Shown here piece after piece: positions 34,253-64,000 of a stretch of 64,000 nucleotides of DNA. The notes beneath the pieces are model-generated. The model had not been told where the DNA came from. It saw only the letters and a program-made list of their open reading frames with translations, and searched no databases. The DNA is from Candidatus Marinacidobacterium sp. (GTDB taxonomy: Bacteria > Acidobacteriota > Vicinamibacteria > Marinacidobacterales > Marinacidobacteraceae). The number at the start of each line of letters is the position of its first letter. Position 1 is the stretch's first letter. The stretch spans positions 3,520,001-3,584,000 of the forward strand of contig OZ242011.1 of the NCBI GenBank assembly GCA_965204755.1. The letters are read 5' to 3'. Position numbers and translations under genes: made by a program.

Positions 34253-34327
34253 AGGCGCGTAGCTCAGGGGGAGAGCGCTACCTTGACACGGTAGAAGTCG
34301 GCGGTTCAAATCCGCCCGCGCCTACCA
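34253..34327 (+). tRNA. tRNA-Val(GAC)
   Basis: Acceptor AGGCGCG/CGCGCCT, D arm GCTC..GAGC, anticodon stem CTACC/GGTAG with loop TT-GAC-AC, T arm GGCGG-TTCAAAT-CCGCC, discriminator A and encoded CCA. Confidence 0.97.
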
Positions 34328-48949: not shown

Positions 48950-50692
48950 ATGAGCGAGCCGAAGCGCCGGACCGGCGCCCAACTCATCTGGGAGACCCTG
49001 CTGCGGGAGGGCGTCGAGACCGTCTTCGGCTACCCGGGCGGGGCGATCCTCCCCGCCTACGACGCGATGCTGGACTACCCGGTCCGGCACATCCTGGTGC
49101 GCCACGAACAGGGCGCGACCCACATGGCGGACGGCTTCGCCCGCGCGACCGGCCGGGTCGGCGTGGCGATCGCCACTTCGGGGCCGGGCGCGACGAACAT
49201 GGTCACCGGGATCGCCACGGCGATGCTGGATTCCTCGCCGATCGTCTGCATCACCGGCCAGGTGGGCAGCGGCCTCATCGGCACCGACGCCTTCCAGGAG
49301 ACCGACATCACCGGGGTCACCCTCCCGATCACCAAGCACAACTACCTGGTGACCGAGGTGGACCAGATCGCCCCGGCGATCCACGAGGCGATGTATGTCG
49401 CCCGCTCCGGCCGCCCCGGCCCGGTTGTGGTGGACATCACCAAGGACGCCCAGCAGGCGGCGACCACCGGCGAATGGGACCCGGCGGACATCGAACTCCC
49501 CGGCTACTCGCCCACCCCGAGGCCCCGACCCGCCGAATACCGCGCCGCCGCCGCGCTGATCAACCGCGCCAGGCGCCCGGTCATCCTCGCCGGCCACGGC
49601 ATCCTCCTGTCGGAGGCGACGGCGGAGGTGCGGGAACTGGTGGAGCGCGCGGACATCCCGGTGGCGATGACCCTGCTCGGCATCGGCTCGGTCCCCGCCC
49701 GGCACCCGCTGAACCTGGGGATGATGGGGATGCACGGCGAGAGTTGGGTCAACCACGCCATCCAGGAAGCCGACCTCCTCATCGCGCTGGGGATGCGGTT
49801 CGACGACCGGGTCACCGGCAAGTTGCAGCAGTACGCGCCGAACGCCCGGAAGATCCACCTGGACATCGACCCCTCGGAGTTCGACAAGAATGTCCGCGTG
49901 GACCTCGCCCTGGCGGGCGACCTGGCCGCCGTGCTCGGCGAGTTGCTGCCTTCGGTGCGGCCCCGGCGGCGCGAGAAGTGGATCGAGGCGATCACCCGGA
50001 TGAAGGGGGACGCCGCCGTCCGCGACATCCAGAACCTGCCCGACGCCGGCGTCCTCTGCGCCGCCCATGTGATCCACGACATCTGGCGGCTCACCGGCGG
50101 GCGGGCGATCCTGGCCACCGATGTGGGGCAGCACCAGATGTGGGCGGCGCAGTACTACCGCCACGACGAGCCCCGGTCGCTCATCACTTCCGGCGGCCTC
50201 GGGACCATGGGGTTCGCCCTGCCGGCGGCGGTGGGCGCCAAGGTCGGCCGCCCCGACGAGGAGGTCTGGGTGATCGCCGGCGACGGCGGCTTCCAGATGA
50301 CGATGTGCGAACTGGCGACGATCGCCCAGGAACGCCTCAAGGTGAACATCGCCGTCATCAACAACGGCTACCTGGGCATGGTGCGCCAGTGGCAGGAGTT
50401 CTTCTACGACCGCCGGTACGCCGGCACGCCGCTGCTCAGCCCCGACTTCGCCGCCCTGGCGCGCTCCTTCGGGCTCGGCGGCGAGTCGGTCGGCAGCCGG
50501 GCGGAGGTCGAAGACGCGGTGGAGCGCGCCCGCGCCGACGAACGGACGGTGGTGCTGGACTTCCGGGTGGAGCGCGAGGACACCGTGTACCCGATGGTGC
50601 CGACCGGCGCGGAACTCCAGGACATGATCCGCCGCCCGGAGCCGGCGCTCGCCGCTTCCGCCGCCGGCGAGGACGGCGGCCGCGAGTGGTGA
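48950..50692 (+). CDS. ilvB: Acetolactate synthase large subunit
   Basis: FGYPGGAILP, RHEQGA, TSGPGATN, RFDDRVTG, DVGQHQMW, TPP motif GDGGFQM...NNGYLGMVRQWQ. Confidence 0.96.
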   Translation: MSEPKRRTGAQLIWETLLREGVETVFGYPGGAILPAYDAMLDYPVRHILVRHEQGATHMADGFARATGRVGVAIATSGPGATNMVTGIATAMLDSSPIVCITGQVGSGLIGTDAFQETDITGVTLPITKHNYLVTEVDQIAPAIHEAMYVARSGRPGPVVVDITKDAQQAATTGEWDPADIELPGYSPTPRPRPAEYRAAAALINRARRPVILAGHGILLSEATAEVRELVERADIPVAMTLLGIGSVPARHPLNLGMMGMHGESWVNHAIQEADLLIALGMRFDDRVTGKLQQYAPNARKIHLDIDPSEFDKNVRVDLALAGDLAAVLGELLPSVRPRRREKWIEAITRMKGDAAVRDIQNLPDAGVLCAAHVIHDIWRLTGGRAILATDVGQHQMWAAQYYRHDEPRSLITSGGLGTMGFALPAAVGAKVGRPDEEVWVIAGDGGFQMTMCELATIAQERLKVNIAVINNGYLGMVRQWQEFFYDRRYAGTPLLSPDFAALARSFGLGGESVGSRAEVEDAVERARADERTVVLDFRVEREDTVYPMVPTGAELQDMIRRPEPALAASAAGEDGGREW

Positions 50693-55664: not shown

Positions 55665-55740
55665 ACCCCCGGTCCTCCGGGGCTCCTCCGGCGCCGAGGC
55701 CGGCGCCCGCCGGTAACGCCGAAGCGCCGCGCTCCGGGCG

Positions 55741-57024
55741 ATGATCGATCGGGAGCGGCTGCTCGCTTCGATCCGGGCCGGGGAAGACTCCGAACTGGAA
55801 CTCGCGGAAGTCGTCTTCCGCGGCGGCCGCGTCACCCTCGGCGGCAGGAAGGGGCGGGCTGCGTCCGAGTTGGCCGAGGTCTTCGTCAGCATGGCGAATA
55901 CCGGCGGGGGCCTCGTCGTTTTCGGCGTCCGTGACTCCGACCGCGCTGTCGTGGGCATCGAACCGGGTCGGCGAGAGGCCGTCGAGCGGTTCGCGGTGGA
56001 TGCCGCCGCGGAGAACTGCGAGCCGGCGATCTTCCCCGGTCTCGACTGGGAACACCTGCCCGGCGCGGACGGAATCGAGCGGCTCTGCCTGGTGGTCCGT
56101 ATCCCGCGCTCGCTCCACGAAGTGCACCGGACGAACGAGGGCCGCTATCTGGAGCGAATCGGGACGCATCGGCGTTTGGTCTCCCCCGATCGACTCTCGC
56201 GGCTCCTGATCGGGCGCGGACTCGCGGCGCCGGTCGAAGTTTGGCCGGCCAGACAGGGCCGGCTGGACCAACTCGACCGCGGACGCCTCGTCGAGTACTT
56301 CCGGGGCCGCTTCGCCGACTGGTCTCCTCCCGCGGACTGGCCCCTCGGGTGGACCGAGGCGCTCGTCCCGCACAAACTCGCCGCGGTGACGGATGCCGGG
56401 CCGACCCCGACGAATCTCGGCATCCTGATGTTCGCCGAACGGCCGGAACGAGTCCTGCCGAGCGCCTTCGTCGAGATGGTCGCCTACCGGCGCGACGAGC
56501 CGGACGGCAACTCGGCGGACAGCAAACGGATCACCGGGCCGATCCCCCGCCAGATCGAGGCGGCGGTGACTTACCTCCAAGTGTCCCCCCTGAACCCCGT
56601 CCTTTCCGTGAAGGGCGGCGGCGGGAGGAAGGATTACCCGGCGTACGACCTCCGCGCGCTCCAGGAAGCGGTGGTGAACGCGGTCGTCCACCGCGACTAC
56701 GCCGCGCCCTCGCAGGTCATCGTCCGACTGTTCCCGGACCGGATCGAGTTCGCGAGTCCGGGCGCCCTCCCGAACGGTCTGACGCCCGCGGACCTCTACG
56801 CCGGCTGCATGCCCCGCCGGCGCAACGAGAACCTCGCCGGGTTCCTCCGCTACTACGAGAGCCGCGCCACCGGGGGAGCGTTCATGGAGGCGCGCGGCGA
56901 AGGCTTCCTGAACCTCGTCCGCGCCAGCGAACGCCTCTCCGGCCGCCGCCCCCGGCTGGAAGAGATCGGGGACTCGACGAAACTCACGATCTACGCCGCC
57001 GCGCCGGAGGCCGCCGGGGCCTGA
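55741..57024 (+). CDS. AlbA_2 (Schlafen-like) domain + RecG-C/HATPase_c_4 protein
   Basis: GEDSELEL, SMANTGGGLVVFGVRD, ALQEAVVNAVVHRDY, FPDRIEFASPGALP, RRNENLA, MEARGEGF. Confidence 0.85.
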   Translation: MIDRERLLASIRAGEDSELELAEVVFRGGRVTLGGRKGRAASELAEVFVSMANTGGGLVVFGVRDSDRAVVGIEPGRREAVERFAVDAAAENCEPAIFPGLDWEHLPGADGIERLCLVVRIPRSLHEVHRTNEGRYLERIGTHRRLVSPDRLSRLLIGRGLAAPVEVWPARQGRLDQLDRGRLVEYFRGRFADWSPPADWPLGWTEALVPHKLAAVTDAGPTPTNLGILMFAERPERVLPSAFVEMVAYRRDEPDGNSADSKRITGPIPRQIEAAVTYLQVSPLNPVLSVKGGGGRKDYPAYDLRALQEAVVNAVVHRDYAAPSQVIVRLFPDRIEFASPGALPNGLTPADLYAGCMPRRRNENLAGFLRYYESRATGGAFMEARGEGFLNLVRASERLSGRRPRLEEIGDSTKLTIYAAAPEAAGA

Positions 57025-57122
57025 GCCCGCCCGGCGGCGGCGCGCGGGCGCCGCCGGTATTCTCCGATCCCCCCGCGGCCGCCCGGAGCGGCGGCGTTCA
57101 GGAGAGGAGACACCGGAACGGA

Positions 57123-59777
57123 ATGCGAGACCCCTTCGACCCGCGGCTCCGGGCATACGGCGCCCCCGCGGCCCCCGCTGCGTTCGGGGCGCTCCTGGCC
57201 GTCTCGACCCTCGTCGGCGCCGCCTCGGCGCAGACGCCTGCGGAGAGCCCGTTCGAGCCCGCCGGCGGCTATTTCGAGCCTGCCGGCGGCTATCCGGCGG
57301 CGCGCCACGGCGGGAACTACATGCACAACTACTACTTCCCTCCGGCGCCGAGCGGCACTCCCTGGGCGCCGGCCTGGGCCCCGGACGGCGCCTCCATCGC
57401 CGTGGCGATGTCCGGCTCCATCTGGCGGGTGGATCCCGAGACCGGCGCCGCCGAAGAGTTGACCTCCGGCCCCGGCTACCACTCGCTGCCGGCCTGGTCG
57501 CCCGACGGTCTATACCTCGCCTATACGGTGGACGACAACGGCGGCAACATCGGGATCGGACTCCTCGACCTCGAATCGGGAGAGCAGCGAATGCTCCTCG
57601 ACGACGAGCATCTCTACACCGATCCGACTTTCTCCCCGGACGGGACGAAATTCGCCTATGTCACCACCGCTCCTTCCGGCTACTTCAATGTCCGCATCCG
57701 GGAGTTCCGGGACGGCGGGCTGACCGGCCCCGCTATCGAGGTGACGCGCGACAACGACTTCGGCCGGAACCGGCTCTACTTCGGCCCCCACGACATGCAC
57801 ATCACCCCGGCCTGGATGCCGGACAGCCGGGAACTGCTCCTCGTCTCCAACCGGGATGTGCCGCTCGGCTCCGGGAATGTGGTTCGCGCCGCCGCCGCGC
57901 CGGACGGTTTCGAAGAACGGACGACGGTGCTGGCGGAGCAGTCGCTCTACCGCACCCGGCCCGATGTCTCGCTCGACGGCAAACGGTTCGTCTATTCCTC
58001 CACCGCCGGCGCCGCCGACCAGTTCTCGAACCTCTATGTCCAGCCGACGACCGGCGGCGCCCCCTACAAACTCACCTTCTTCCAACACGACGCCTTCCAC
58101 CCGAGATGGTCGCCGGACGGCGAGTGGATCGCGTACATCGACAACGAGGGCGGCCTTCCCCGGCTGGCGCTCCTCGAAACCTACGGCGGCAAGCGCCGGG
58201 TCGTCCGCATCACCCGCCGCGCCTGGCGGCGCCCGACGGGCATCCTCTCCGTGCGAACCGTGGACGGAACGACCGGGGAGGAGACCGCCTCCCGCATCCA
58301 TCTCGCCGCCGGCGACGGCCGGTTCTACCCGCCTCCCGACGCCTTCGCCCGCATCGGCGGCGCCCGGGAACATTCCTTCCACCAGTCGGGGCGGTTCGAG
58401 TTGGAAGTTCCCGTCGGCCCGCTGGCGGTCGAGGCGGTCAAGGGATTCGAATACGAGCCGGCGAGCGAGCGCGTCGAGATCACTCCCGGCGATGTGACCG
58501 AAGTGACGCTCCGCCTGCCGCGCCTCACGGACATGGCGGCGAAGGGTTGGTGGAGCGGATCCACCCATGTCCACATGAACTACGCCGGGAACCTCCACAA
58601 CACGCTGGAGAACCTGATGTTCATGTCCGCCGCCGAAGACCAGGATGTGGTGCTCGAACAGATCGCCAACAAGGACAACCGCATCCTGGACTACCAGCAT
58701 TTCGTTCCCGGCGGCGGCGCCCATCCGCTCTCGACCGAGGACCGCATCCTCGTCGTCGGACAGGAGTACCGGCCGCCCTTCTACGGCCATGTCTTCTACT
58801 TCGGCTTGCGCGAGCACCTGATCTCGCCCTTCGTCACCGGTTACGAGGGAACCGGCATCGAGAGCCTCTACCCGTCCAACACGGACATGTTCCGCAAGGC
58901 GAGGGCGCAGGGCGCCACCGTCGGCTATGTGCATGCGTTCTTCGGGGAGGACGATCCGCTGGTCGGTCCGGACGGGGGGCCGGGGAGCCTCGGCGGAGCG
59001 AAGGGCTACATGGTGGACGCCGCGCTCGGAACGACGGACGCCGTGGAATGGTCGGAAGCGTCGCGCGCCGGATTCCATCCCTGGTACGCGACCCTGAACA
59101 ACGGCCTGCGCGTAACGGCGGTCGGCGGCGAAGACTCGATCAGCAACATGCAGCGCTCGAAACTCGTCGGCTCGGTGCGCACCTATGTCCACACCGGGGA
59201 CGAGGGGCTGGCGCTCGAACCCTGGCTCGCCGGACTCCGCGCCGGCCGCGCGTTCGTGAGTTGCGGCCCCCTCCTCGACTTCCGGGTGGAGGGAAAGATG
59301 CCGGGAGGCGAAGTGGAAGTGGCGGCGCCCGGCGGCGAGGTCGCGTGGAGCGCCTGGATCCGCTCGCCCACGCCGCTTGAACGCGCCTGGCTCGTCCGAA
59401 GCGGCGAGGACGCGGGCGAAGTGCCCCTGTCCGCCGACCGGAAGTCGGCCACCGCCACCGGGACCATCGCGGTGGACACCAGCAGTTGGCTGATCCTCCG
59501 CGCCGAGGGCTCACCCGAAGAGCGCCGCCCCCTCGACTGCAGTTACGCCCAGGCATTCACCAACCCGGTGTGGGTCTCGGTGGGCGGCCAACCCGTGCGC
59601 AGCGCCTCCGCCGCCGAATACTCGATCCGCTGGATCGCCCGACTCCGCGAGATGGCCGAGGCCTGGCCCGGCTGGAGATCCGAAGCCGAGCAGTCCCATG
59701 TCTATGCCCAGTTCGACGAAGCCCGCGCCATCTACGAGAGTTTCCTGACCGAAGCCCGCACCCTCGACCGCCCGTAA
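57123..59777 (+). CDS. Exported CehA/McbA-family metallohydrolase with N-terminal PD40/TolB-like propeller
   Basis: Signal peptide, repeated PAWSPDG/PTFSPDG/PRWSPDG motifs, PHP-like WWSGSTHVHM, GQEYR..YGH, YVHA, GGEDS, AFTNPVWV. ATG after AGGAGAGG. Confidence 0.85.
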   Translation: MRDPFDPRLRAYGAPAAPAAFGALLAVSTLVGAASAQTPAESPFEPAGGYFEPAGGYPAARHGGNYMHNYYFPPAPSGTPWAPAWAPDGASIAVAMSGSIWRVDPETGAAEELTSGPGYHSLPAWSPDGLYLAYTVDDNGGNIGIGLLDLESGEQRMLLDDEHLYTDPTFSPDGTKFAYVTTAPSGYFNVRIREFRDGGLTGPAIEVTRDNDFGRNRLYFGPHDMHITPAWMPDSRELLLVSNRDVPLGSGNVVRAAAAPDGFEERTTVLAEQSLYRTRPDVSLDGKRFVYSSTAGAADQFSNLYVQPTTGGAPYKLTFFQHDAFHPRWSPDGEWIAYIDNEGGLPRLALLETYGGKRRVVRITRRAWRRPTGILSVRTVDGTTGEETASRIHLAAGDGRFYPPPDAFARIGGAREHSFHQSGRFELEVPVGPLAVEAVKGFEYEPASERVEITPGDVTEVTLRLPRLTDMAAKGWWSGSTHVHMNYAGNLHNTLENLMFMSAAEDQDVVLEQIANKDNRILDYQHFVPGGGAHPLSTEDRILVVGQEYRPPFYGHVFYFGLREHLISPFVTGYEGTGIESLYPSNTDMFRKARAQGATVGYVHAFFGEDDPLVGPDGGPGSLGGAKGYMVDAALGTTDAVEWSEASRAGFHPWYATLNNGLRVTAVGGEDSISNMQRSKLVGSVRTYVHTGDEGLALEPWLAGLRAGRAFVSCGPLLDFRVEGKMPGGEVEVAAPGGEVAWSAWIRSPTPLERAWLVRSGEDAGEVPLSADRKSATATGTIAVDTSSWLILRAEGSPEERRPLDCSYAQAFTNPVWVSVGGQPVRSASAAEYSIRWIARLREMAEAWPGWRSEAEQSHVYAQFDEARAIYESFLTEARTLDRP

Positions 59778-59800
59778 CGGTCCGTCACCAGGACTGCCAG

Positions 59801-59809
59801 TGATATACT
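59801..59809 (+). promoter_or_regulatory. Extended -10 promoter (TGaTATACT) upstream of the NACHT gene
   Basis: Near-consensus TGnTATACT ~100 nt before the start. Confidence 0.55.
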
Positions 59810-59911
59810 CCCGCAAGACGGCAGTAGCCGGGTTCCCGTGAAGCCTCGTCGCCCCGCCCATCGCGCCACCCGGCCGATGGTGCGCCTTGAACCCCTGCCT
59901 GGGGGCTGGCC

Positions 59912-62368
59912 GTGATGCTCACGGAGAAGGCCGCCTCGTATCTGACGGCGTGGGGCTATCAGATTCTCGACAGGAGTCCTGACTTGCTCGTCGCACGAAA
60001 GAAGGACGAGGTCGGTTCCGAGAACATAAAGTGCGTCTGGATTTCGGAGCGCGAACCTGACAGTGCCGTTGAGGACAAGTTCATTGAACGTTTTCTTGAC
60101 GACGATGTCTCGACTCGCCATGCGTCCGTCGACAAGATTTTCTTGACAGAGAGTCTCAACTACTCCTCACAGTTCCGTCGAGACTGCAGTAAGGAACTAC
60201 GAGTTCGGATCTTGTCTCCCGTGAGGTTCTTCGACACCCCCTTCAACTTCGACAACGACAAGGCGGCCGCCGGTGTCGTCAAACAGCTGGCCGACGACGG
60301 GAAGCAGTGGGAGGCGTGCCGCGTACGGCAACCCTTCAGTATCGTCGCCCGTTCACTTGATGATCGGGAGCGGGAAATCCACCGTGAAAAGGATCTGGCC
60401 GAACATCTTTTCGGGCAGGTGAGGCAGCGCGCCCGGCGACCTCAGCCGACGCTATGGATAGTCGCGGCTCCAGCCGGATGTGGAAAAACTCGGCTCTTTT
60501 CGTCCCTTTTCGCGGGTGTCTACGGCGAGTTCCACAGCCACAAGAATAGGCACATGTTCTTTCCGCGCCCCTTTCCCATGGTCGCGGAACATCTTCGCAG
60601 AGCCGCTGGGCCCAACATTACGGGCCTGATTGACGCGTTCCTTAAGACGGACTTTGCGCGCCATGCCGACGAGCGCATGTTTCGGTGGATGGTTGATCAC
60701 GGTCACGCGCTGTGGATGTTGGACGGGTTGGACGAAGTGATCACGGGTGATCCATCGTTCGTGCCGTGTTTGTTGGAGTATTTCACTACTCCCGCGGCGA
60801 CACCGTTCGTTCTCATGTCCGTGCGAGATTCGGTGCTGCGTTCGAACGAGGATCTTGCGGAACTGATCGAGGGGAGTGGGGAAGCGGTCACAGTCTTCGA
60901 ACTGGAGCGGTGGGGACGACGAGAGAAGCGCCAACTGGCTTGGACGCAAGTCCATAGGCGTCTCCCGGCCCGTGGACTGAAGGACGACCGGCCGATCTTG
61001 GACCTGATGTCCTCTCTGACTCGCGACGCGGTGGCGAACGAGTTGTCGTCAACGCCGTTCTATGCGTCCATTCTGGCACAGGAGGCCGGGAGGGACGCGC
61101 GGAAGAGGTTGGAGGGCGAACTGGGGCTGCTTGACATGGCCGTGGAGGCAATGTGCAAACGGGAGTACAGGAAGGGTGGGCCGATTGACGAGAGGGTCCT
61201 GTCGCTCGCGGCGTTTCGGGAGTGGCTTGAAGAAGTGGCCGCTGAGGTCGTGGAGAGCGACGGTATGGAAACGGATCGCTTGGTGGACCTGGCCGAGTTG
61301 GTGATGGCCCTCGTAGAGGATGGCTCTGAAGCATCCGAGCACCGCAGTCCGCTGGTAGAGCAGATCAAGGCGATGCCTTTCTTGCGCATGACTCGGGCAT
61401 CGGACCGACTGGAGTTCGTCCATGAACTACTTGGCGACTACTTGGCGGGCTCCTACTACCTCCGCCGTACACGCGAGGAGACGGAACGAAAGGTGTCGCT
61501 GAGGCATCGAAGAACGGTGCAGTTGGGGCGATACGTTGGGCGAGCAGATCTCCCGAACGACTCCCTTCGCTTGCGGACGATGGCCGTCGGCTTCGGAAAG
61601 GATCGTGAAGTCCTTGTTCGTGCGCTGATCGAGGCACCGAGTTGCGCCACCGGGGAGGCGTTGCGAAACTGTCTGCGGATCATTGCCCAGATGGAATCGG
61701 GGCGCGAGATCATCGATCGAGTGAACATGTCGTTGGAGGGGCAGGATCTCTCGGGAGTTGATTTCGGGGACCTGGATCTGACGAGGATGAACTTGGCAGG
61801 CTCTGACCTGAGTTTCGCGAACTTGGAACGTGTGACCCTGCGTGAAGCGGGACTGGAATCCGTACGTCTTCGGAACACGGTGTTTGCGGGCGCGGAGAGC
61901 GGTCTCTTGGACGGAGCGAGCTTTGGCGGAGGGCAGAATTTCGTGTCCATCCAAAGCGAAGGTCGCGAGATCACCAGCTATGCGCAGTTCCGGAAATGGG
62001 CGGTGAGAGCGACGAGCGTGCCGATGGACAGCGATCGACCGTGTGGAGCGGTGCGGCAACTCGCGCACATCTTCGGAAAGTTCGTGCGACCGTCCGGCAG
62101 CGCTCGTCGAGACGAAATCGATGAGCGAGGAGTTCTTCGGGGGCGAAGAGAGAAGGGAGTGAAGAGTTATCGGCGCGTCGTGGAGGAAGTCAGGAAGTGG
62201 GGCTACCTGGAGTCGAGGCATCGCGGGCGCGTGGGTAAACCAGGTCCGGAGAAGTACGCGGAGATCGTGCGCTTTGTGATGGACTCTCGGGGCCTCTCGT
62301 CGGGGCTTCGGCAGATCGCAGACTCGGTCTGTGAGGAGCCGGGCTGCGAGCACGTGGACAGGGAGTAG
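59912..62368 (+). CDS. STAND/NACHT NTPase with N-terminal restriction-endonuclease-like domain, pentapeptide repeats and a C-terminal wHTH-like/Cys-rich tail
   Basis: Walker A APAGCGKT, Walker B WMLDGLDE, MSVR (sensor), STPFYA, EFVHELLGDYLAG. Pentapeptides LEGQDLSGVDFGDLDLTRMNLAGSDLSFANLERVTLREAGL. AT-richer than its neighbours. Confidence 0.82.
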   Translation: MMLTEKAASYLTAWGYQILDRSPDLLVARKKDEVGSENIKCVWISEREPDSAVEDKFIERFLDDDVSTRHASVDKIFLTESLNYSSQFRRDCSKELRVRILSPVRFFDTPFNFDNDKAAAGVVKQLADDGKQWEACRVRQPFSIVARSLDDREREIHREKDLAEHLFGQVRQRARRPQPTLWIVAAPAGCGKTRLFSSLFAGVYGEFHSHKNRHMFFPRPFPMVAEHLRRAAGPNITGLIDAFLKTDFARHADERMFRWMVDHGHALWMLDGLDEVITGDPSFVPCLLEYFTTPAATPFVLMSVRDSVLRSNEDLAELIEGSGEAVTVFELERWGRREKRQLAWTQVHRRLPARGLKDDRPILDLMSSLTRDAVANELSSTPFYASILAQEAGRDARKRLEGELGLLDMAVEAMCKREYRKGGPIDERVLSLAAFREWLEEVAAEVVESDGMETDRLVDLAELVMALVEDGSEASEHRSPLVEQIKAMPFLRMTRASDRLEFVHELLGDYLAGSYYLRRTREETERKVSLRHRRTVQLGRYVGRADLPNDSLRLRTMAVGFGKDREVLVRALIEAPSCATGEALRNCLRIIAQMESGREIIDRVNMSLEGQDLSGVDFGDLDLTRMNLAGSDLSFANLERVTLREAGLESVRLRNTVFAGAESGLLDGASFGGGQNFVSIQSEGREITSYAQFRKWAVRATSVPMDSDRPCGAVRQLAHIFGKFVRPSGSARRDEIDERGVLRGRREKGVKSYRRVVEEVRKWGYLESRHRGRVGKPGPEKYAEIVRFVMDSRGLSSGLRQIADSVCEEPGCEHVDRE

Positions 62369-62435
62369 CAGCGAAGTCGGCGGCTTGGTTTGGAGTGCGA
62401 CCGCGCATTGGGTGCGGTGACGGGCGTCGCTGCCA

Positions 62436-64000
62436 TCAGGGGCGGAGGGGGCGGCCGGCCAAGGCGTTCGTGGCGGCGCCGCCGCGGATGGCGAAGACGC
62501 CGTTCACGAGGACCTGGACGGTTCCTTCGGAGTAACTGCGCGGGTTCTCGAAGGTGGCGGTGTCGCGCAGGCGGTCCCGGTCGAGGACGACCAGGTCGGC
62601 CTTCATTCCTTCGGCGAGGTAGCCGCGGTCGGTCAATCCCAGGAAGTCGGCGGCGAGGCCGGTCATGCTGCGGATGGCGAAGGGCAGGGAAATGATTCCC
62701 TCGTCGAGGGCGTAGCGGCGCAGTTTGCGGGTGAACGCGCCGGAGACCCGGGGGTGGCCGACCTCGGCTTCCGGAGGGATGTCGCGGCCGTCGGTGCAGG
62801 TCATCATCCAATCCTGCTGCGCCAGGAACCGGGTGTTCTCCTCGTCGTAGAGCCGGAGGTTCATCACCGAAGCGTTTCCGCCGCGCAGGACCTCCCGCGC
62901 CGCCGCCGGGGGATCGAGTCCGAGTTCGTCGGCGACTTCGGCGAGCGTCTTGCCGTTCAGTTCCGGGCGCGCCGAGGAGAAGAGGATGGCGTCGGCGCCG
63001 CCCCGGATAGCCAGCATCTCGGCGGTGGCTTCGCCGATGACCGCGGCGGTGTTCGGGTCGTCGAACCGGGCGAGCATCGCCTCCCGCCCGCCGGCGGCGG
63101 CCCAGCGCGGGACCGTGTAGGCCCGGAGGCTGGACTGGGTGGCGGTATAGACATGCTGGGCGCCGGCGACTTCGACGCCGCGCTCGCGGGCCTCTTCGAT
63201 GAGTCGGGCGCCCTCCGGGGCTCGCCCGTAGTTCCGGACGCCCTGCGCGTTGAAGTGGCTGAAGATCACCCGCAGGCCGGATTCCTCGCCGATGCGGATC
63301 GCTTCTTCGATGGACGCGAGATAGCCGAACGAGGGATAGGCCGCTCCGAGGTCCCGGTCGTGGGTGTCGTAGATGGTTCCGCCGGCGTCGGCCGCCGCCC
63401 GGCCGAGCGCGATGACCTCCTCGGTCGTCGCGTAAGTTCCGGGGACATAGAAGAGCCCGGTCGAGAACCCGAACGCGCCTTCCTCGACGCCTCGGCGCAC
63501 GAGGGCCTCCATCTCCCCGAGTTCCTCCCCGGTGGGCGCGCGGTCCTCTTCGCCCATCACCCGGCGGCGAACCGCTCCGTGGCCCACATAGGTCAGGGCG
63601 TTCACGCCGATTCCGCGCGCTTCCCAACCGGCGAGCGTCGCCGCGACTTCCGGGGAACCCCCGCCGTCCACGCCGAGCACCACGGTGGTGATGCCCTGGT
63701 GGAGGAAGGGCAGCGCCTCCTTGGCCCAGTCGTCCCCGACCTGCGAATGGGAGTGCATGTCGATGAATCCGGGCGCGACGAGCAACCCGGAGACATCCAG
63801 CGTCTCCTCGCCGGTGATCCCGGCGGCATCGGCGTCCCCGACGAAGACGATCTCGTCCCCGGAGACCCCGATGTCCGCGCGCACCGGTTCGTTCCCGGAA
63901 CCATCCAACACGGTTCCGCCGGCGAGCAGCAGTTCGACCGACTGCCCGCCGCAACCGGAAGCGGCGGCCAGCGCGAGCGCGGCGCCGGCGACGAAAAGGG
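62436..64000 (-). CDS. N-acyl-D-amino-acid deacylase/amidohydrolase lipoprotein (5' end beyond window)
   Basis: APGFIDMHSH, GFSTGLFYVPG, HPRVSGAF, RSMTGLAA, RGYLAEGMKADLVV. The frame stays open to the window edge and reads LFVAGAALALAAASGCGG (lipobox). Confidence 0.9.
   Translation of the reverse strand, partial: LFVAGAALALAAASGCGGQSVELLLAGGTVLDGSGNEPVRADIGVSGDEIVFVGDADAAGITGEETLDVSGLLVAPGFIDMHSHSQVGDDWAKEALPFLHQGITTVVLGVDGGGSPEVAATLAGWEARGIGVNALTYVGHGAVRRRVMGEEDRAPTGEELGEMEALVRRGVEEGAFGFSTGLFYVPGTYATTEEVIALGRAAADAGGTIYDTHDRDLGAAYPSFGYLASIEEAIRIGEESGLRVIFSHFNAQGVRNYGRAPEGARLIEEARERGVEVAGAQHVYTATQSSLRAYTVPRWAAAGGREAMLARFDDPNTAAVIGEATAEMLAIRGGADAILFSSARPELNGKTLAEVADELGLDPPAAAREVLRGGNASVMNLRLYDEENTRFLAQQDWMMTCTDGRDIPPEAEVGHPRVSGAFTRKLRRYALDEGIISLPFAIRSMTGLAADFLGLTDRGYLAEGMKADLVVLDRDRLRDTATFENPRSYSEGTVQVLVNGVFAIRGGAATNALAGRPLRP

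What the first reader, a model, noticed from the sequence alone, without database searches (positions are those of the whole stretch)
59801..62368. Foreign-looking solitary NLR-like gene: REase-like + NACHT + pentapeptide + wHTH/Cys tail
Seen: a self-contained unit with its own extended -10 promoter, between convergent hydrolase genes, and AT-richer (hand count 30/60 GC at 60121-60180 versus 43/60 at 49081-49140). The N-terminal ~110 aa follow an Mrr/PD-(D/E)xK-like pattern (AASYLTAWGYQIL..PDLLV...KIFLT...VRIL) but lack an obvious (D/E/Q)xK. Walker A and B are intact. After ~10 pentapeptides comes a basic winged-helix-like segment (VVEEVRKWGYLESR.RGRV) flanked by a Cys and a terminal CxxxxCxH. 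Known: bacterial NACHT/STAND proteins act as anti-phage pattern receptors, and pentapeptide repeats can mimic DNA (Qnr, MfpA). Inference: a one-gene defence system using a DNA-mimic bait plus a Zn-stabilised nucleic-acid-binding domain as sensor, with an atypical or inactive nuclease-fold effector. I do not recognise this combination as a named system.
Basis: partly seen in the sequence, partly recalled or inferred. Interest (0 to 1): 0.7.

Follow-up and report, generated by a model that had tools for sequence, protein, structure and literature searches.

The report
Solitary bacterial NLR-like gene, recently inserted
This is a real, horizontally acquired single gene for an NLR-like (NACHT) switch protein from a rare, uncharacterised family, probably an immune-type sensor, and some cells of the same natural population carry it while others do not.

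Summary
Window 59912-62368 (+) encodes an 818-aa protein with four parts. The first is a restriction-endonuclease-fold N-domain that lacks the canonical catalytic triad. The second is a NACHT NTPase with intact Walker A, the D-G-L-D-E Walker B and a sensor-1 Arg. The third is about 11 pentapeptide repeats. The fourth is a family-specific C-domain with winged-helix topology and a Cys...CxxxxCxH set.

Its GC is about 10 points below its flanks. It was not found in 40 relatives or in 300 other genomes of its phylum. It lies in a 2.66-kb cassette exactly between two convergent stop codons. One public run holds both the filled and the empty site.

The family is conserved over its full length (144 cluster representatives at E<=1e-30), spans several phyla and is AT-richer than its flanks in 26 of 28 loci. 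In 11 of 28 loci it sits beside R-M, GmrSD, AIPR or WYL-regulator genes. It matches no PADLOC model.

Best reading: a one-gene bacterial NLR-like conflict sensor (about 0.55). The DNA-mimic-bait idea is not supported. Kibby et al. catalogued NACHT proteins with REase, pentapeptide and a Cys/His C-domain, so it is a new variant of a known kind. The scan has noted other NACHT-pentapeptide proteins, but not this family.

The parts
59779..62435 (.). Strain-variable 2657-bp cassette lying exactly between the stop codons of two convergent genes
   Evidence: Homology to the same-genus genome G001 ends at 59789 and resumes at 62452. In run X4 a contig joins 59778 to 62436, with 35 other letters in place of the cassette. 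GC is about 0.60 against 0.70.
59801..59809 (+). Extended -10-like motif (TGnTATACT) inside the cassette, 102 nt upstream of the start
   Evidence: Read directly. Not supported by the two-hexamer consensus scan. No RNA data.
59912..62368 (+). CDS of the 818-aa NLR-like protein (GTG start; stop included)
   Evidence: Homologues align from residue 1-3 to 814-818.
59912..60256 (+). N-domain (aa 1-115): PD-(D/E)xK (restriction endonuclease) fold without the conserved catalytic triad, ending in the invariant FFD(T)PF motif (F106, F107, D108)
60257..61711 (+). Linker plus NACHT module (aa ~116-600: NBD, helical and winged-helix subdomains)
60467..60490 (+). Walker A (aa 186-193, A-P-A-G-x-G-K-T)
   Evidence: G189, G191 and K192 in 135 of 135 family members.
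60710..60736 (+). Walker B with the NACHT signature D-G-L-D-E (aa 271-275)
   Evidence: D271 135, G272 134, D/E274 135, E275 135 of 135. The signature D[GAS]hDE is as defined in Kibby et al., section 6.
61721..61981 (+). Pentapeptide-repeat beta-helix (aa ~604-690; about 11 regular repeats plus an irregular cap)
61982..62365 (+). Family-specific C-domain (aa 691-818): winged-helix-like core with conserved basic residues, plus a C711...C807-x4-C812-x-H814 putative Zn site
   Evidence: Invariant columns. Topology from the model, pLDDT 80-91. The profile finds it only in this family, 41 of 41 hits. No PDB sequence relative. No Pfam hit.

Best explanation
The gene is a horizontally acquired, single-gene bacterial NLR-like protein of the bNACHT type, and most likely an immune or conflict sensor-switch. 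Shown here: the four-part anatomy, the intact NTPase motifs, that the gene is foreign, the presence/absence polymorphism, and the family's wide but sparse distribution. Inferred, by analogy with animal NLRs and the bacterial NACHT proteins tested by Kibby et al.: at rest the protein is a closed, nucleotide-bound monomer. The C-terminal module (short pentapeptide beta-helix plus Zn-stabilised winged-helix-like domain with a conserved basic patch) recognises an invader-derived ligand, either a protein or a nucleic acid. This permits nucleotide exchange and oligomerisation through the NACHT module, which clusters the N-terminal restriction-endonuclease-fold domains. Because that domain lacks the canonical Asp/(Asp,Glu)-x-Lys triad in nearly all members, I take it to be a non-catalytic adaptor or DNA-binding module, in the way Pfam's 'NACHT-associated inactive REase' is named. 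The output would then be DNA binding or blocking, or recruitment of a host factor, leading to growth arrest or abortive infection rather than ordinary DNA cleavage.
For: Architecture: whole-protein model pLDDT 85.4, pTM 0.82. The best PDB matches are NLRC4, NOD2, NLRP3 and NLRP9. Walker A, the D-G-h-D-E Walker B and R305 are conserved in 135 of 135. The N-domain has a REase fold by two aligners. The canonical triad is present in 1 of 135, and position 40 is Lys in 4 of 135. One relative (P0120) carries a Ser/Thr kinase domain in front of the whole architecture, an effector-type fusion. Foreign origin: GC is 0.10 below the flanks. No true match in 40 relatives and 0 of 300 other genomes of the phylum. 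The cassette is bounded by the two stop codons. Empty (depth ~237) and filled (depth ~77) alleles coexist in run X4, and the gene has the same context in X3, X8 and the diverged X11. Family behaviour: 144 representatives at E<=1e-30, mostly 780-815 aa and aligned end to end. Members occur in Latescibacteria, Poribacteria, Aminicenantes/Saccharicenans, Acidimicrobiia, Terriglobales and proteobacterial MAGs. The gene has lower GC than its flanks in 26 of 28 loci. Context of homologues: UvrD-PDDEXK, ResIII, GmrSD and a methylase beside L015 and L046; a helicase-REase, HicA and a Type I R subunit beside L016; AIPR beside L017 and L051. An HTH-WYL-WCX regulator lies directly upstream on the same strand in L041, L042, L043, L047, L054 and L055 (only L041 and L055 were scanned by Pfam, the rest were joined by BLAST clustering). 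WYL regulators co-localise with defence systems (PMC9122601, title and abstract start seen in the listing).
Against: No experiment exists and no RNA data were found. The gene's own neighbourhood is housekeeping: acetolactate synthase, aminotransferases, peptidases, LigD. There are 0 PADLOC hits at E<=1. No relatives were found in phage, plasmid or viral-contig collections. 17 of 28 homologue loci showed no defence-type neighbour among the genes I examined, and not all neighbours were scanned (L018, L014/L039, L045/L062, L069 and L048 gave metabolic, transport or no Pfam hits). Several loci are near-duplicates (L014/L039, L015/L046, L041/L042). Without an enzymatic effector the killing or blocking step is undefined. 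Position 38 is acidic in 102 of 135, D108 is invariant and E54 is present in 106 of 135, so an atypical active site is not excluded. The sensor/effector polarity is assumed from other NLRs.
Confidence: 0.55

Rival explanations
1. It is the same NLR-like defence protein, but the N-domain is a working nuclease with an atypical active site (for example D/E38, E54 and D108, plus D24 and K40 in this protein). Like the REase-NACHT protein bNACHT25, it would cleave DNA once oligomerised.
For: REase fold. Acidic residue at position 38 in 102 of 135, D108 in 135 of 135, E54 in 106 of 135. This protein and a few relatives have D24 with N38-x-K40 (4 of 135 have D24+[DEQN]38+K40). Kibby et al. describe the Mrr-like REase effector of bNACHT25 (passage seen).
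Against: Lys at position 40 in 4 of 135 and Asp at position 24 in 55 of 135. The Mrr_cat and NA-iREase1 HMMs do not reach the domain at E<=10. The invariant FFD motif is flanked by invariant aromatic residues and looks structural (inference). I could not inspect coordinates to see whether E54 and D108 lie near the canonical site.
Confidence: 0.2
2. It is a MalT-like STAND transcription factor. The NACHT switch would control the C-terminal winged-helix/Zn domain, which binds DNA and regulates genes, with no immune role.
For: Winged-helix-like topology and conserved basic residues K723, R732, R733, R739 and R743. The layout NOD, then repeats, then a C-terminal DNA-binding domain resembles MalT (recalled, not tested).
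Against: No conserved target operon: the only recurrent neighbours are a WYL regulator in 6 loci and an acyl-CoA dehydrogenase in 5. The gene is a mobile singleton with presence/absence polymorphism. It is AT-rich in 26 of 28 loci. It sits in defence islands in several loci. The winged-helix assignment rests on model topology alone.
Confidence: 0.12
3. One reading: the pentapeptide helix is a B-DNA mimic that baits phage DNA-binding proteins.
For: The pentapeptide fold is real. Qnr and MfpA are DNA mimics (recalled). Kaur et al. note that pentapeptide repeats may inhibit DNA-binding proteins (passage seen).
Against: There are only about 11 regular repeats, under 3 coils, which is far shorter than Qnr/MfpA rods (recalled). 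Scores of 13-14 bits against Qnr/MfpA cut-offs of 240-450. The helix could equally be a rigid spacer carrying the C-domain.
Confidence: 0.08
4. It is a selfish or decaying passenger gene with no current function.
For: Solitary, foreign, no RNA evidence. The empty allele is more abundant in X4.
Against: The frame is open over 818 aa. All NTPase and Cys/His motifs are intact and conserved across phyla. Identical copies occur in runs of several studies.
Confidence: 0.05

Closest known systems
Bacterial NACHT (bNACHT) NLR-related anti-phage proteins, Kibby et al. (bioRxiv 10.1101/2022.07.19.500537; sections 6 and 12 read, figures and Table S1 not seen), e.g. REase-NACHT bNACHT25 and the 'hybrid' sensor class
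   Same: Central NACHT with the D[GAS]hDE signature. N-terminal REase-fold domain. C-terminal repeat module plus a small extra C-domain ('hybrid'). Single-gene and patchily distributed. [quoted passage not shown]
   Different: No PADLOC hit at E<=1. The Pfam NACHT model does not reach this protein. The REase domain lacks the catalytic triad. No member of this family is known to me to have been tested. I could not check whether this clade is one of their 25 (figure and supplement not available).
Pfam PF22722 NA-iREase1 (NACHT-associated inactive restriction endonuclease 1)
   Same: The same concept: a degenerate REase-fold domain placed N-terminal to a NACHT module.
   Different: The HMM gives no match to this gene at E<=10 in the genome or in 33 members at E<=0.01, so it is a different sequence family.
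Avs/AVAST STAND defence proteins (Avs3, Avs4)
   Same: One-gene STAND sensor with an N-terminal nuclease-fold effector and a C-terminal sensor. Structural hits 8dgf (rank 27) and 8dgc (rank 47).
   Different: Animal NACHT NLRs rank far higher. The Walker B carries the NACHT signature. No PADLOC Avs model hits. The sensor is a pentapeptide/Zn-wHTH module and not a TPR-like one (the last point recalled).
Pentapeptide-repeat DNA mimics Qnr / MfpA / AlbG
   Same: Right-handed quadrilateral beta-helix repeat.
   Different: About 11 repeats embedded in an 818-aa NLR. Scores are far below the family cut-offs. No evidence of gyrase targeting.
MalT-type STAND transcription activators (recalled)
   Same: NOD, then a repeat arm, then a C-terminal DNA-binding-type domain.
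   Different: NACHT clade signature. Mobile singleton without a conserved regulon. Extra N-terminal REase-fold domain.

Membership tests
NACHT clade of STAND P-loop NTPases | Walker A GxxxxGK[ST] | tested here: met
   A-P-A-G-C-G-K-T at 186-193. G189, G191 and K192 in 135 of 135.
NACHT clade of STAND P-loop NTPases | Walker B D[GAS]hDE signature (as defined in Kibby et al., section 6) | tested here: met
   D271-G-L-D-E275. 135, 134, 129 (Leu), 135 (D/E) and 135 of 135.
NACHT clade of STAND P-loop NTPases | NBD followed by helical and winged-helix subdomains, as in NLRs | tested here: met
NACHT clade of STAND P-loop NTPases | Pfam NACHT (PF05729) above its gathering score | tested here: inconclusive
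   No hit for this protein at E<=1. 3 of 33 members hit at E<=0.01, NPHP3_N in 14 of 33 and nSTAND_NTPase5 in 7 of 33. This is a detection model, not a defining trait.
Named anti-phage systems (PADLOC-DB v2: bNACHT, Avs and others) | Match to a system HMM | tested here: not met
   0 families at E<=1.
Anti-phage defence gene (functional class) | Protects against phage on expression | not testable with these tools
   Only indirect evidence: defence-type neighbours in 11 of 28 homologue loci and presence/absence polymorphism.
PD-(D/E)xK nuclease superfamily | alpha-beta-beta-beta-alpha-beta core fold | tested here: met
PD-(D/E)xK nuclease superfamily | Catalytic D ... (D/E)xK residues | tested here: not met
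   D24 in 55 of 135, acidic residue at 38 in 102 of 135, K40 in 4 of 135, all three in 1 of 135. This protein has D24, N38 and K40.
Pfam NA-iREase1 (PF22722) / Mrr_cat (PF04471) | HMM match | tested here: not met
   No match to this gene at E<=10. The ESM-Atlas lead to Mrr_cat clusters scored only 0.86 and 0.79.
Pentapeptide repeat (PF00805) | HMM above gathering score | tested here: met
   26.1 bits against 20.2 at residues 622-658. 33 of 33 members.
Qnr/MfpA DNA-mimic pentapeptide proteins | Family HMM above cut-off | tested here: not met
   13.3-14.2 bits against cut-offs of 240-450.
Winged helix-turn-helix / CCCH zinc site (C-domain) | wHTH fold confirmed by fold search; four ligands in bonding geometry; metal bound | tested here: inconclusive
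   The topology order fits. The four ligands are present in 129 of 135. The domain was not folded or searched alone, no coordinates were available, and no sequence relative was found in the PDB.

The most novel reading that the evidence does not exclude
The family is an NLR with no enzymatic effector that senses nucleic acid directly. The Zn-stapled winged-helix domain, held on a short pentapeptide spacer, would recognise an invader DNA or RNA feature. The activated oligomer would then use its ring of dead restriction-endonuclease domains as a multivalent, non-cutting DNA clamp that stalls replication. That would be both a nucleic-acid-sensing NACHT and a non-enzymatic output, neither of which has been shown for bacterial NLRs as far as my searches and my recall go.
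Probability: 0.12. Interest if true: 0.75.

Novelty: new variant of a known kind. Interest (0 to 1): 0.42.

Why it matters
Bacterial NLR-like proteins are the likely ancestors of animal and fungal NLRs, but only a few clades have been tested. This clade is compact (818 aa, one gene). It has a fixed architecture, and two of its domains match nothing in Pfam, PADLOC, NCBIfam or the sequences of solved structures. Its nuclease-fold domain appears to have lost catalysis. It could show how an NLR signals without an enzyme, and what a pentapeptide/Zn-winged-helix sensor recognises. The natural filled and empty alleles in one population give a ready-made field comparison of carriers and non-carriers.

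Tried and rejected
- PADLOC gave no hit. NCBIfam gave only sub-threshold pentapeptide families.
- The NA-iREase1 and Mrr_cat HMMs gave no hit on the gene at E<=10 in the genome.
- ESM Atlas: the N-domain lead to Mrr_cat clusters scored 0.86 and 0.79 and is a lead only. The C-domain gave no usable hit.
- PDB sequence profiles: the whole family hit only pentapeptide proteins. The N-domain and C-domain hit nothing meaningful.
- Complex prediction on two copies of the N-domain returned no verdict, so it is not evidence either way.
- Insertion scars: no convincing flanking direct or inverted repeats. The only tRNA is at 34253. No integrase or transposase was seen among the neighbours scanned.
- The sigma-70 consensus scan found 0 sites.
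- The empty site could not be read from relatives, because the flank orthologues lie about 620 kb apart in G001. The laid contigs settled this instead.
- No relatives by pattern scan in viral contigs, or by tblastn in PLSDB plasmids or INPHARED phages.
- No RNA holder is listed among the sequencing runs.
- A single-sequence search with the C-domain found only 3 close relatives. The profile search replaced it.
- A conserved partner gene (an effector encoded in trans) was sought by all-against-all BLAST of 186 neighbour ORFs from 28 loci. Only the WYL regulator (6 loci) and an acyl-CoA dehydrogenase (5 loci) recur in more than 3 loci.
- Literature searches found only Kibby et al. for NACHT plus pentapeptide. 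Their Figure 2 image and Table S1 could not be seen and may already show this clade.
Full report
OBSERVATION. The window holds an open frame at 59912-62368 (+) of 818 aa with a GTG start. The region 59750-62250 has GC 0.57-0.62 against 0.68-0.73 on either side. The gene is 0.60 against 0.70 for both neighbours. A TGnTATACT element lies at 59801-59809, but the two-hexamer promoter scan found nothing. The downstream convergent gene is an Amidohydro_3 protein. The upstream gene matched only PD40/DPPIV_N repeats.

ANATOMY. Pfam sees only the pentapeptide repeats (622-658, 26.1 bits) and weak P-loop hits. PADLOC sees nothing at E<=1.
- G189, G191 and K192 in 135.
- D271 in 135, G272 in 134, D/E274 in 135, E275 in 135.
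- R305 in 135.
- C711, C807, C812 and H814 all together in 129.
D-G-L-D-E is the D[GAS]hDE signature that Kibby et al. use to separate NACHT from other STAND NTPases (section 6).

The catalytic positions are not kept. Position 24 is Asp in 55 of 135. Position 38 is acidic in 102 of 135. Position 40 is Lys in 4 of 135 and otherwise mostly Ile, Val, Thr or Arg. The full triad occurs in 1 of 135. The Mrr_cat and NA-iREase1 HMMs do not reach the domain at E<=10. What is conserved is W43, E54, F88 and an F106-F107-D108 motif, with D108 in 135 of 135. This protein happens to have D24 and N38-x-K40.

C-TERMINAL MODULE. The model shows strands every five residues from 612 to 658 (about 11 repeats, under three coils) and an irregular cap to about 690. 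It then shows helices and strands in the order a1(712-721), b1(735-737), a2(738-742), a3(753-762), b2(767-769), b3(773-775), which is the winged-helix order. Two more helices follow, and then the tail C807-x4-C812-x-H814. C711 sits just before a1. K723, R732, R733, R739 and R743 are conserved.

A profile of this domain found 41 proteins. All are of this family (pentapeptide-bearing, about 720-860 aa) or fragments from short contigs. No PDB sequence relative and no Atlas hit were found. I could not fold it alone or inspect coordinates, so the Zn site and the winged helix remain inferences.

FAMILY AND DISTRIBUTION. The exhaustive search gave 1587 hits at E<=1e-3, 279 at <=1e-10 and 144 at <=1e-30. 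Most of the best are 780-815 aa and aligned from residue about 3 to about 815. Named members come from Terriglobales, a betaproteobacterium, Poribacteria and Saccharicenans, and from Latescibacteria, Aminicenantes, Acidimicrobiia and a proteobacterial MAG. A Hyphomicrobiaceae subgroup shares only the N-domain and NACHT. One relative, P0120 (1083 aa), carries a Ser/Thr kinase domain in front of the complete architecture. No relative was found in viral contigs, plasmids or phages.

THE GENE IS A RECENT, VARIABLE INSERT. It is single-copy in a one-contig 3.98-Mb genome. Among 40 relatives the only other match is a 63-residue pentapeptide stretch in G037. None of 300 other genomes sampled across the phylum has a match at E<=1e-10. 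Against the same-genus genome, DNA homology stops at 59789 and resumes at 62452, and the two flanks lie about 620 kb apart there.

Contigs of four public runs were laid on 58500-63700:
- X3 (23.2-kb contig, 0 differences) and X8 (8.6 kb, 0 differences) carry the gene in the same place.
- X11 (10.9 kb, 159 differences) carries it in the same place in a diverged strain.
- In X4 one contig joins 59778 to 62436, with 35 other letters instead of the 2657-bp cassette, at depth ~237. The gene-bearing contig (59749-62465) has depth ~77, and the flanks have 186 and 346.
The X4 joint rests on one contig with 30 letters on its shorter side, so it is good but not overwhelming evidence for coexisting empty and filled alleles. 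No repeats, tRNA or recombinase mark the ends.

CONTEXT. The gene's own neighbours are housekeeping. The exception is a Schlafen/AlbA_2-HATPase_c_4 gene at 55741-57024, which is also missing from G001 and partly matches pAgo-associated PADLOC models.

For homologues I examined 28 full-length loci. The gene has lower GC than its flanks in 26 of the 28. Defence-type neighbours are these:
- L015 and its near-duplicate L046: UvrD-PDDEXK, ResIII, GmrSD_N and a methylase.
- L016: a helicase with an MTES_1575 REase domain, HicA and a Type I R subunit.
- L017: AIPR 131 bp downstream, and Mrr_cat.
- L051: AIPR.
- L041, L042, L043, L047, L054 and L055: an HTH-WYL-WCX regulator directly upstream on the same strand.
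That is 11 of 28 loci, or about 9 independent ones. PADLOC also scored many defence families among the 94 neighbours of L013-L018. The other loci showed metabolic, transport or unassigned neighbours among the few genes I scanned. No nuclease or other candidate partner recurs, so the system looks like one gene, optionally under a WYL regulator.

MECHANISM. Shown: an intact NACHT switch flanked by a degenerate REase-fold domain and a pentapeptide/Cys-His module, on a mobile, population-variable cassette. Inferred: the C-terminal module senses an invader ligand, the NACHT module oligomerises, and the clustered N-domains deliver a non-canonical output. I rate a non-catalytic N-domain above an atypical nuclease, at roughly 60:40. 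The reasons are that the Lys is missing in 131 of 135, that the conserved motif is aromatic-rich, and that a kinase can be added in front of the domain. A MalT-like regulator is the main non-immune rival. The DNA-mimic bait idea is weak because the helix is short and unlike Qnr/MfpA.

COMPARISON AND NOVELTY. The kind is known. Kibby et al. catalogued about 20,000 bacterial NACHT proteins, with REase effectors, pentapeptide sensors, 'hybrid' sensors, inactive domains and an 'NCC-H' Cys/His C-domain. Pfam also has a 'NACHT-associated inactive REase' family. This family is not reached by those models or by PADLOC, and I found no paper on it. I could not see Figure 2 or Table S1, which may already depict it. 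The scan's earlier notes list many NACHT-pentapeptide proteins with other effectors but nothing similar to this one by sequence. I class it as a new variant of a known kind, of moderate interest.

Noticed in passing
window 47-29611 (+): A single open frame of about 9855 aa (GC3 0.91) fills nearly half the window. It would be a giant protein and was not examined.
   Followed up: no
window 55683-57274 (gene 55741-57024, +): A Schlafen/AlbA_2 + HATPase_c_4 gene two genes upstream is also absent from the same-genus genome: 1592 bp here against about 295 bp there. It partly matches pAgo-associated PADLOC models, so it may be a second strain-specific insert, possibly conflict-related.
   Followed up: partly
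L041:6906-7955, L055:4473-5483 and cluster mates in L042, L043, L047, L054: In a subclade of the family an HTH-WYL-WCX regulator lies directly upstream on the same strand (gaps of 0-277 bp; 46 bp in L041, L042 and L047). This suggests BrxR/CapW-like control of these NLR genes.
   Followed up: partly
L017:12522-14270 and L051:319-1761: AIPR (abortive infection) genes lie next to two unrelated family members.
   Followed up: partly
L019-L033 (Hyphomicrobiaceae MAGs); P0134, P0144, P0146: A subgroup shares the degenerate REase domain and NACHT (query residues 3 to about 525) but has a different, shorter C-terminus with no Pfam pentapeptide hit. This indicates sensor swapping on a constant N-terminal half.
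   Followed up: partly
P0120 (1083 aa, metagenomic): A Ser/Thr protein kinase domain (residues 26-249) is fused in front of the complete four-part architecture.
   Followed up: no
G000:C1:539957-545315 (-), outside the window: Four tandem large ORFs (about 636-1163 aa open frames) each give the same weak Mrr_cat hit (13-14 bits). This is a paralogous array of unknown nature.
   Followed up: no
L016:12518-22354: In a Saccharicenans MAG the homologue heads a low-GC island (0.31-0.47 against 0.58-0.61 upstream) holding a helicase-REase, a HicA-domain protein and a Type I R subunit.
   Followed up: partly
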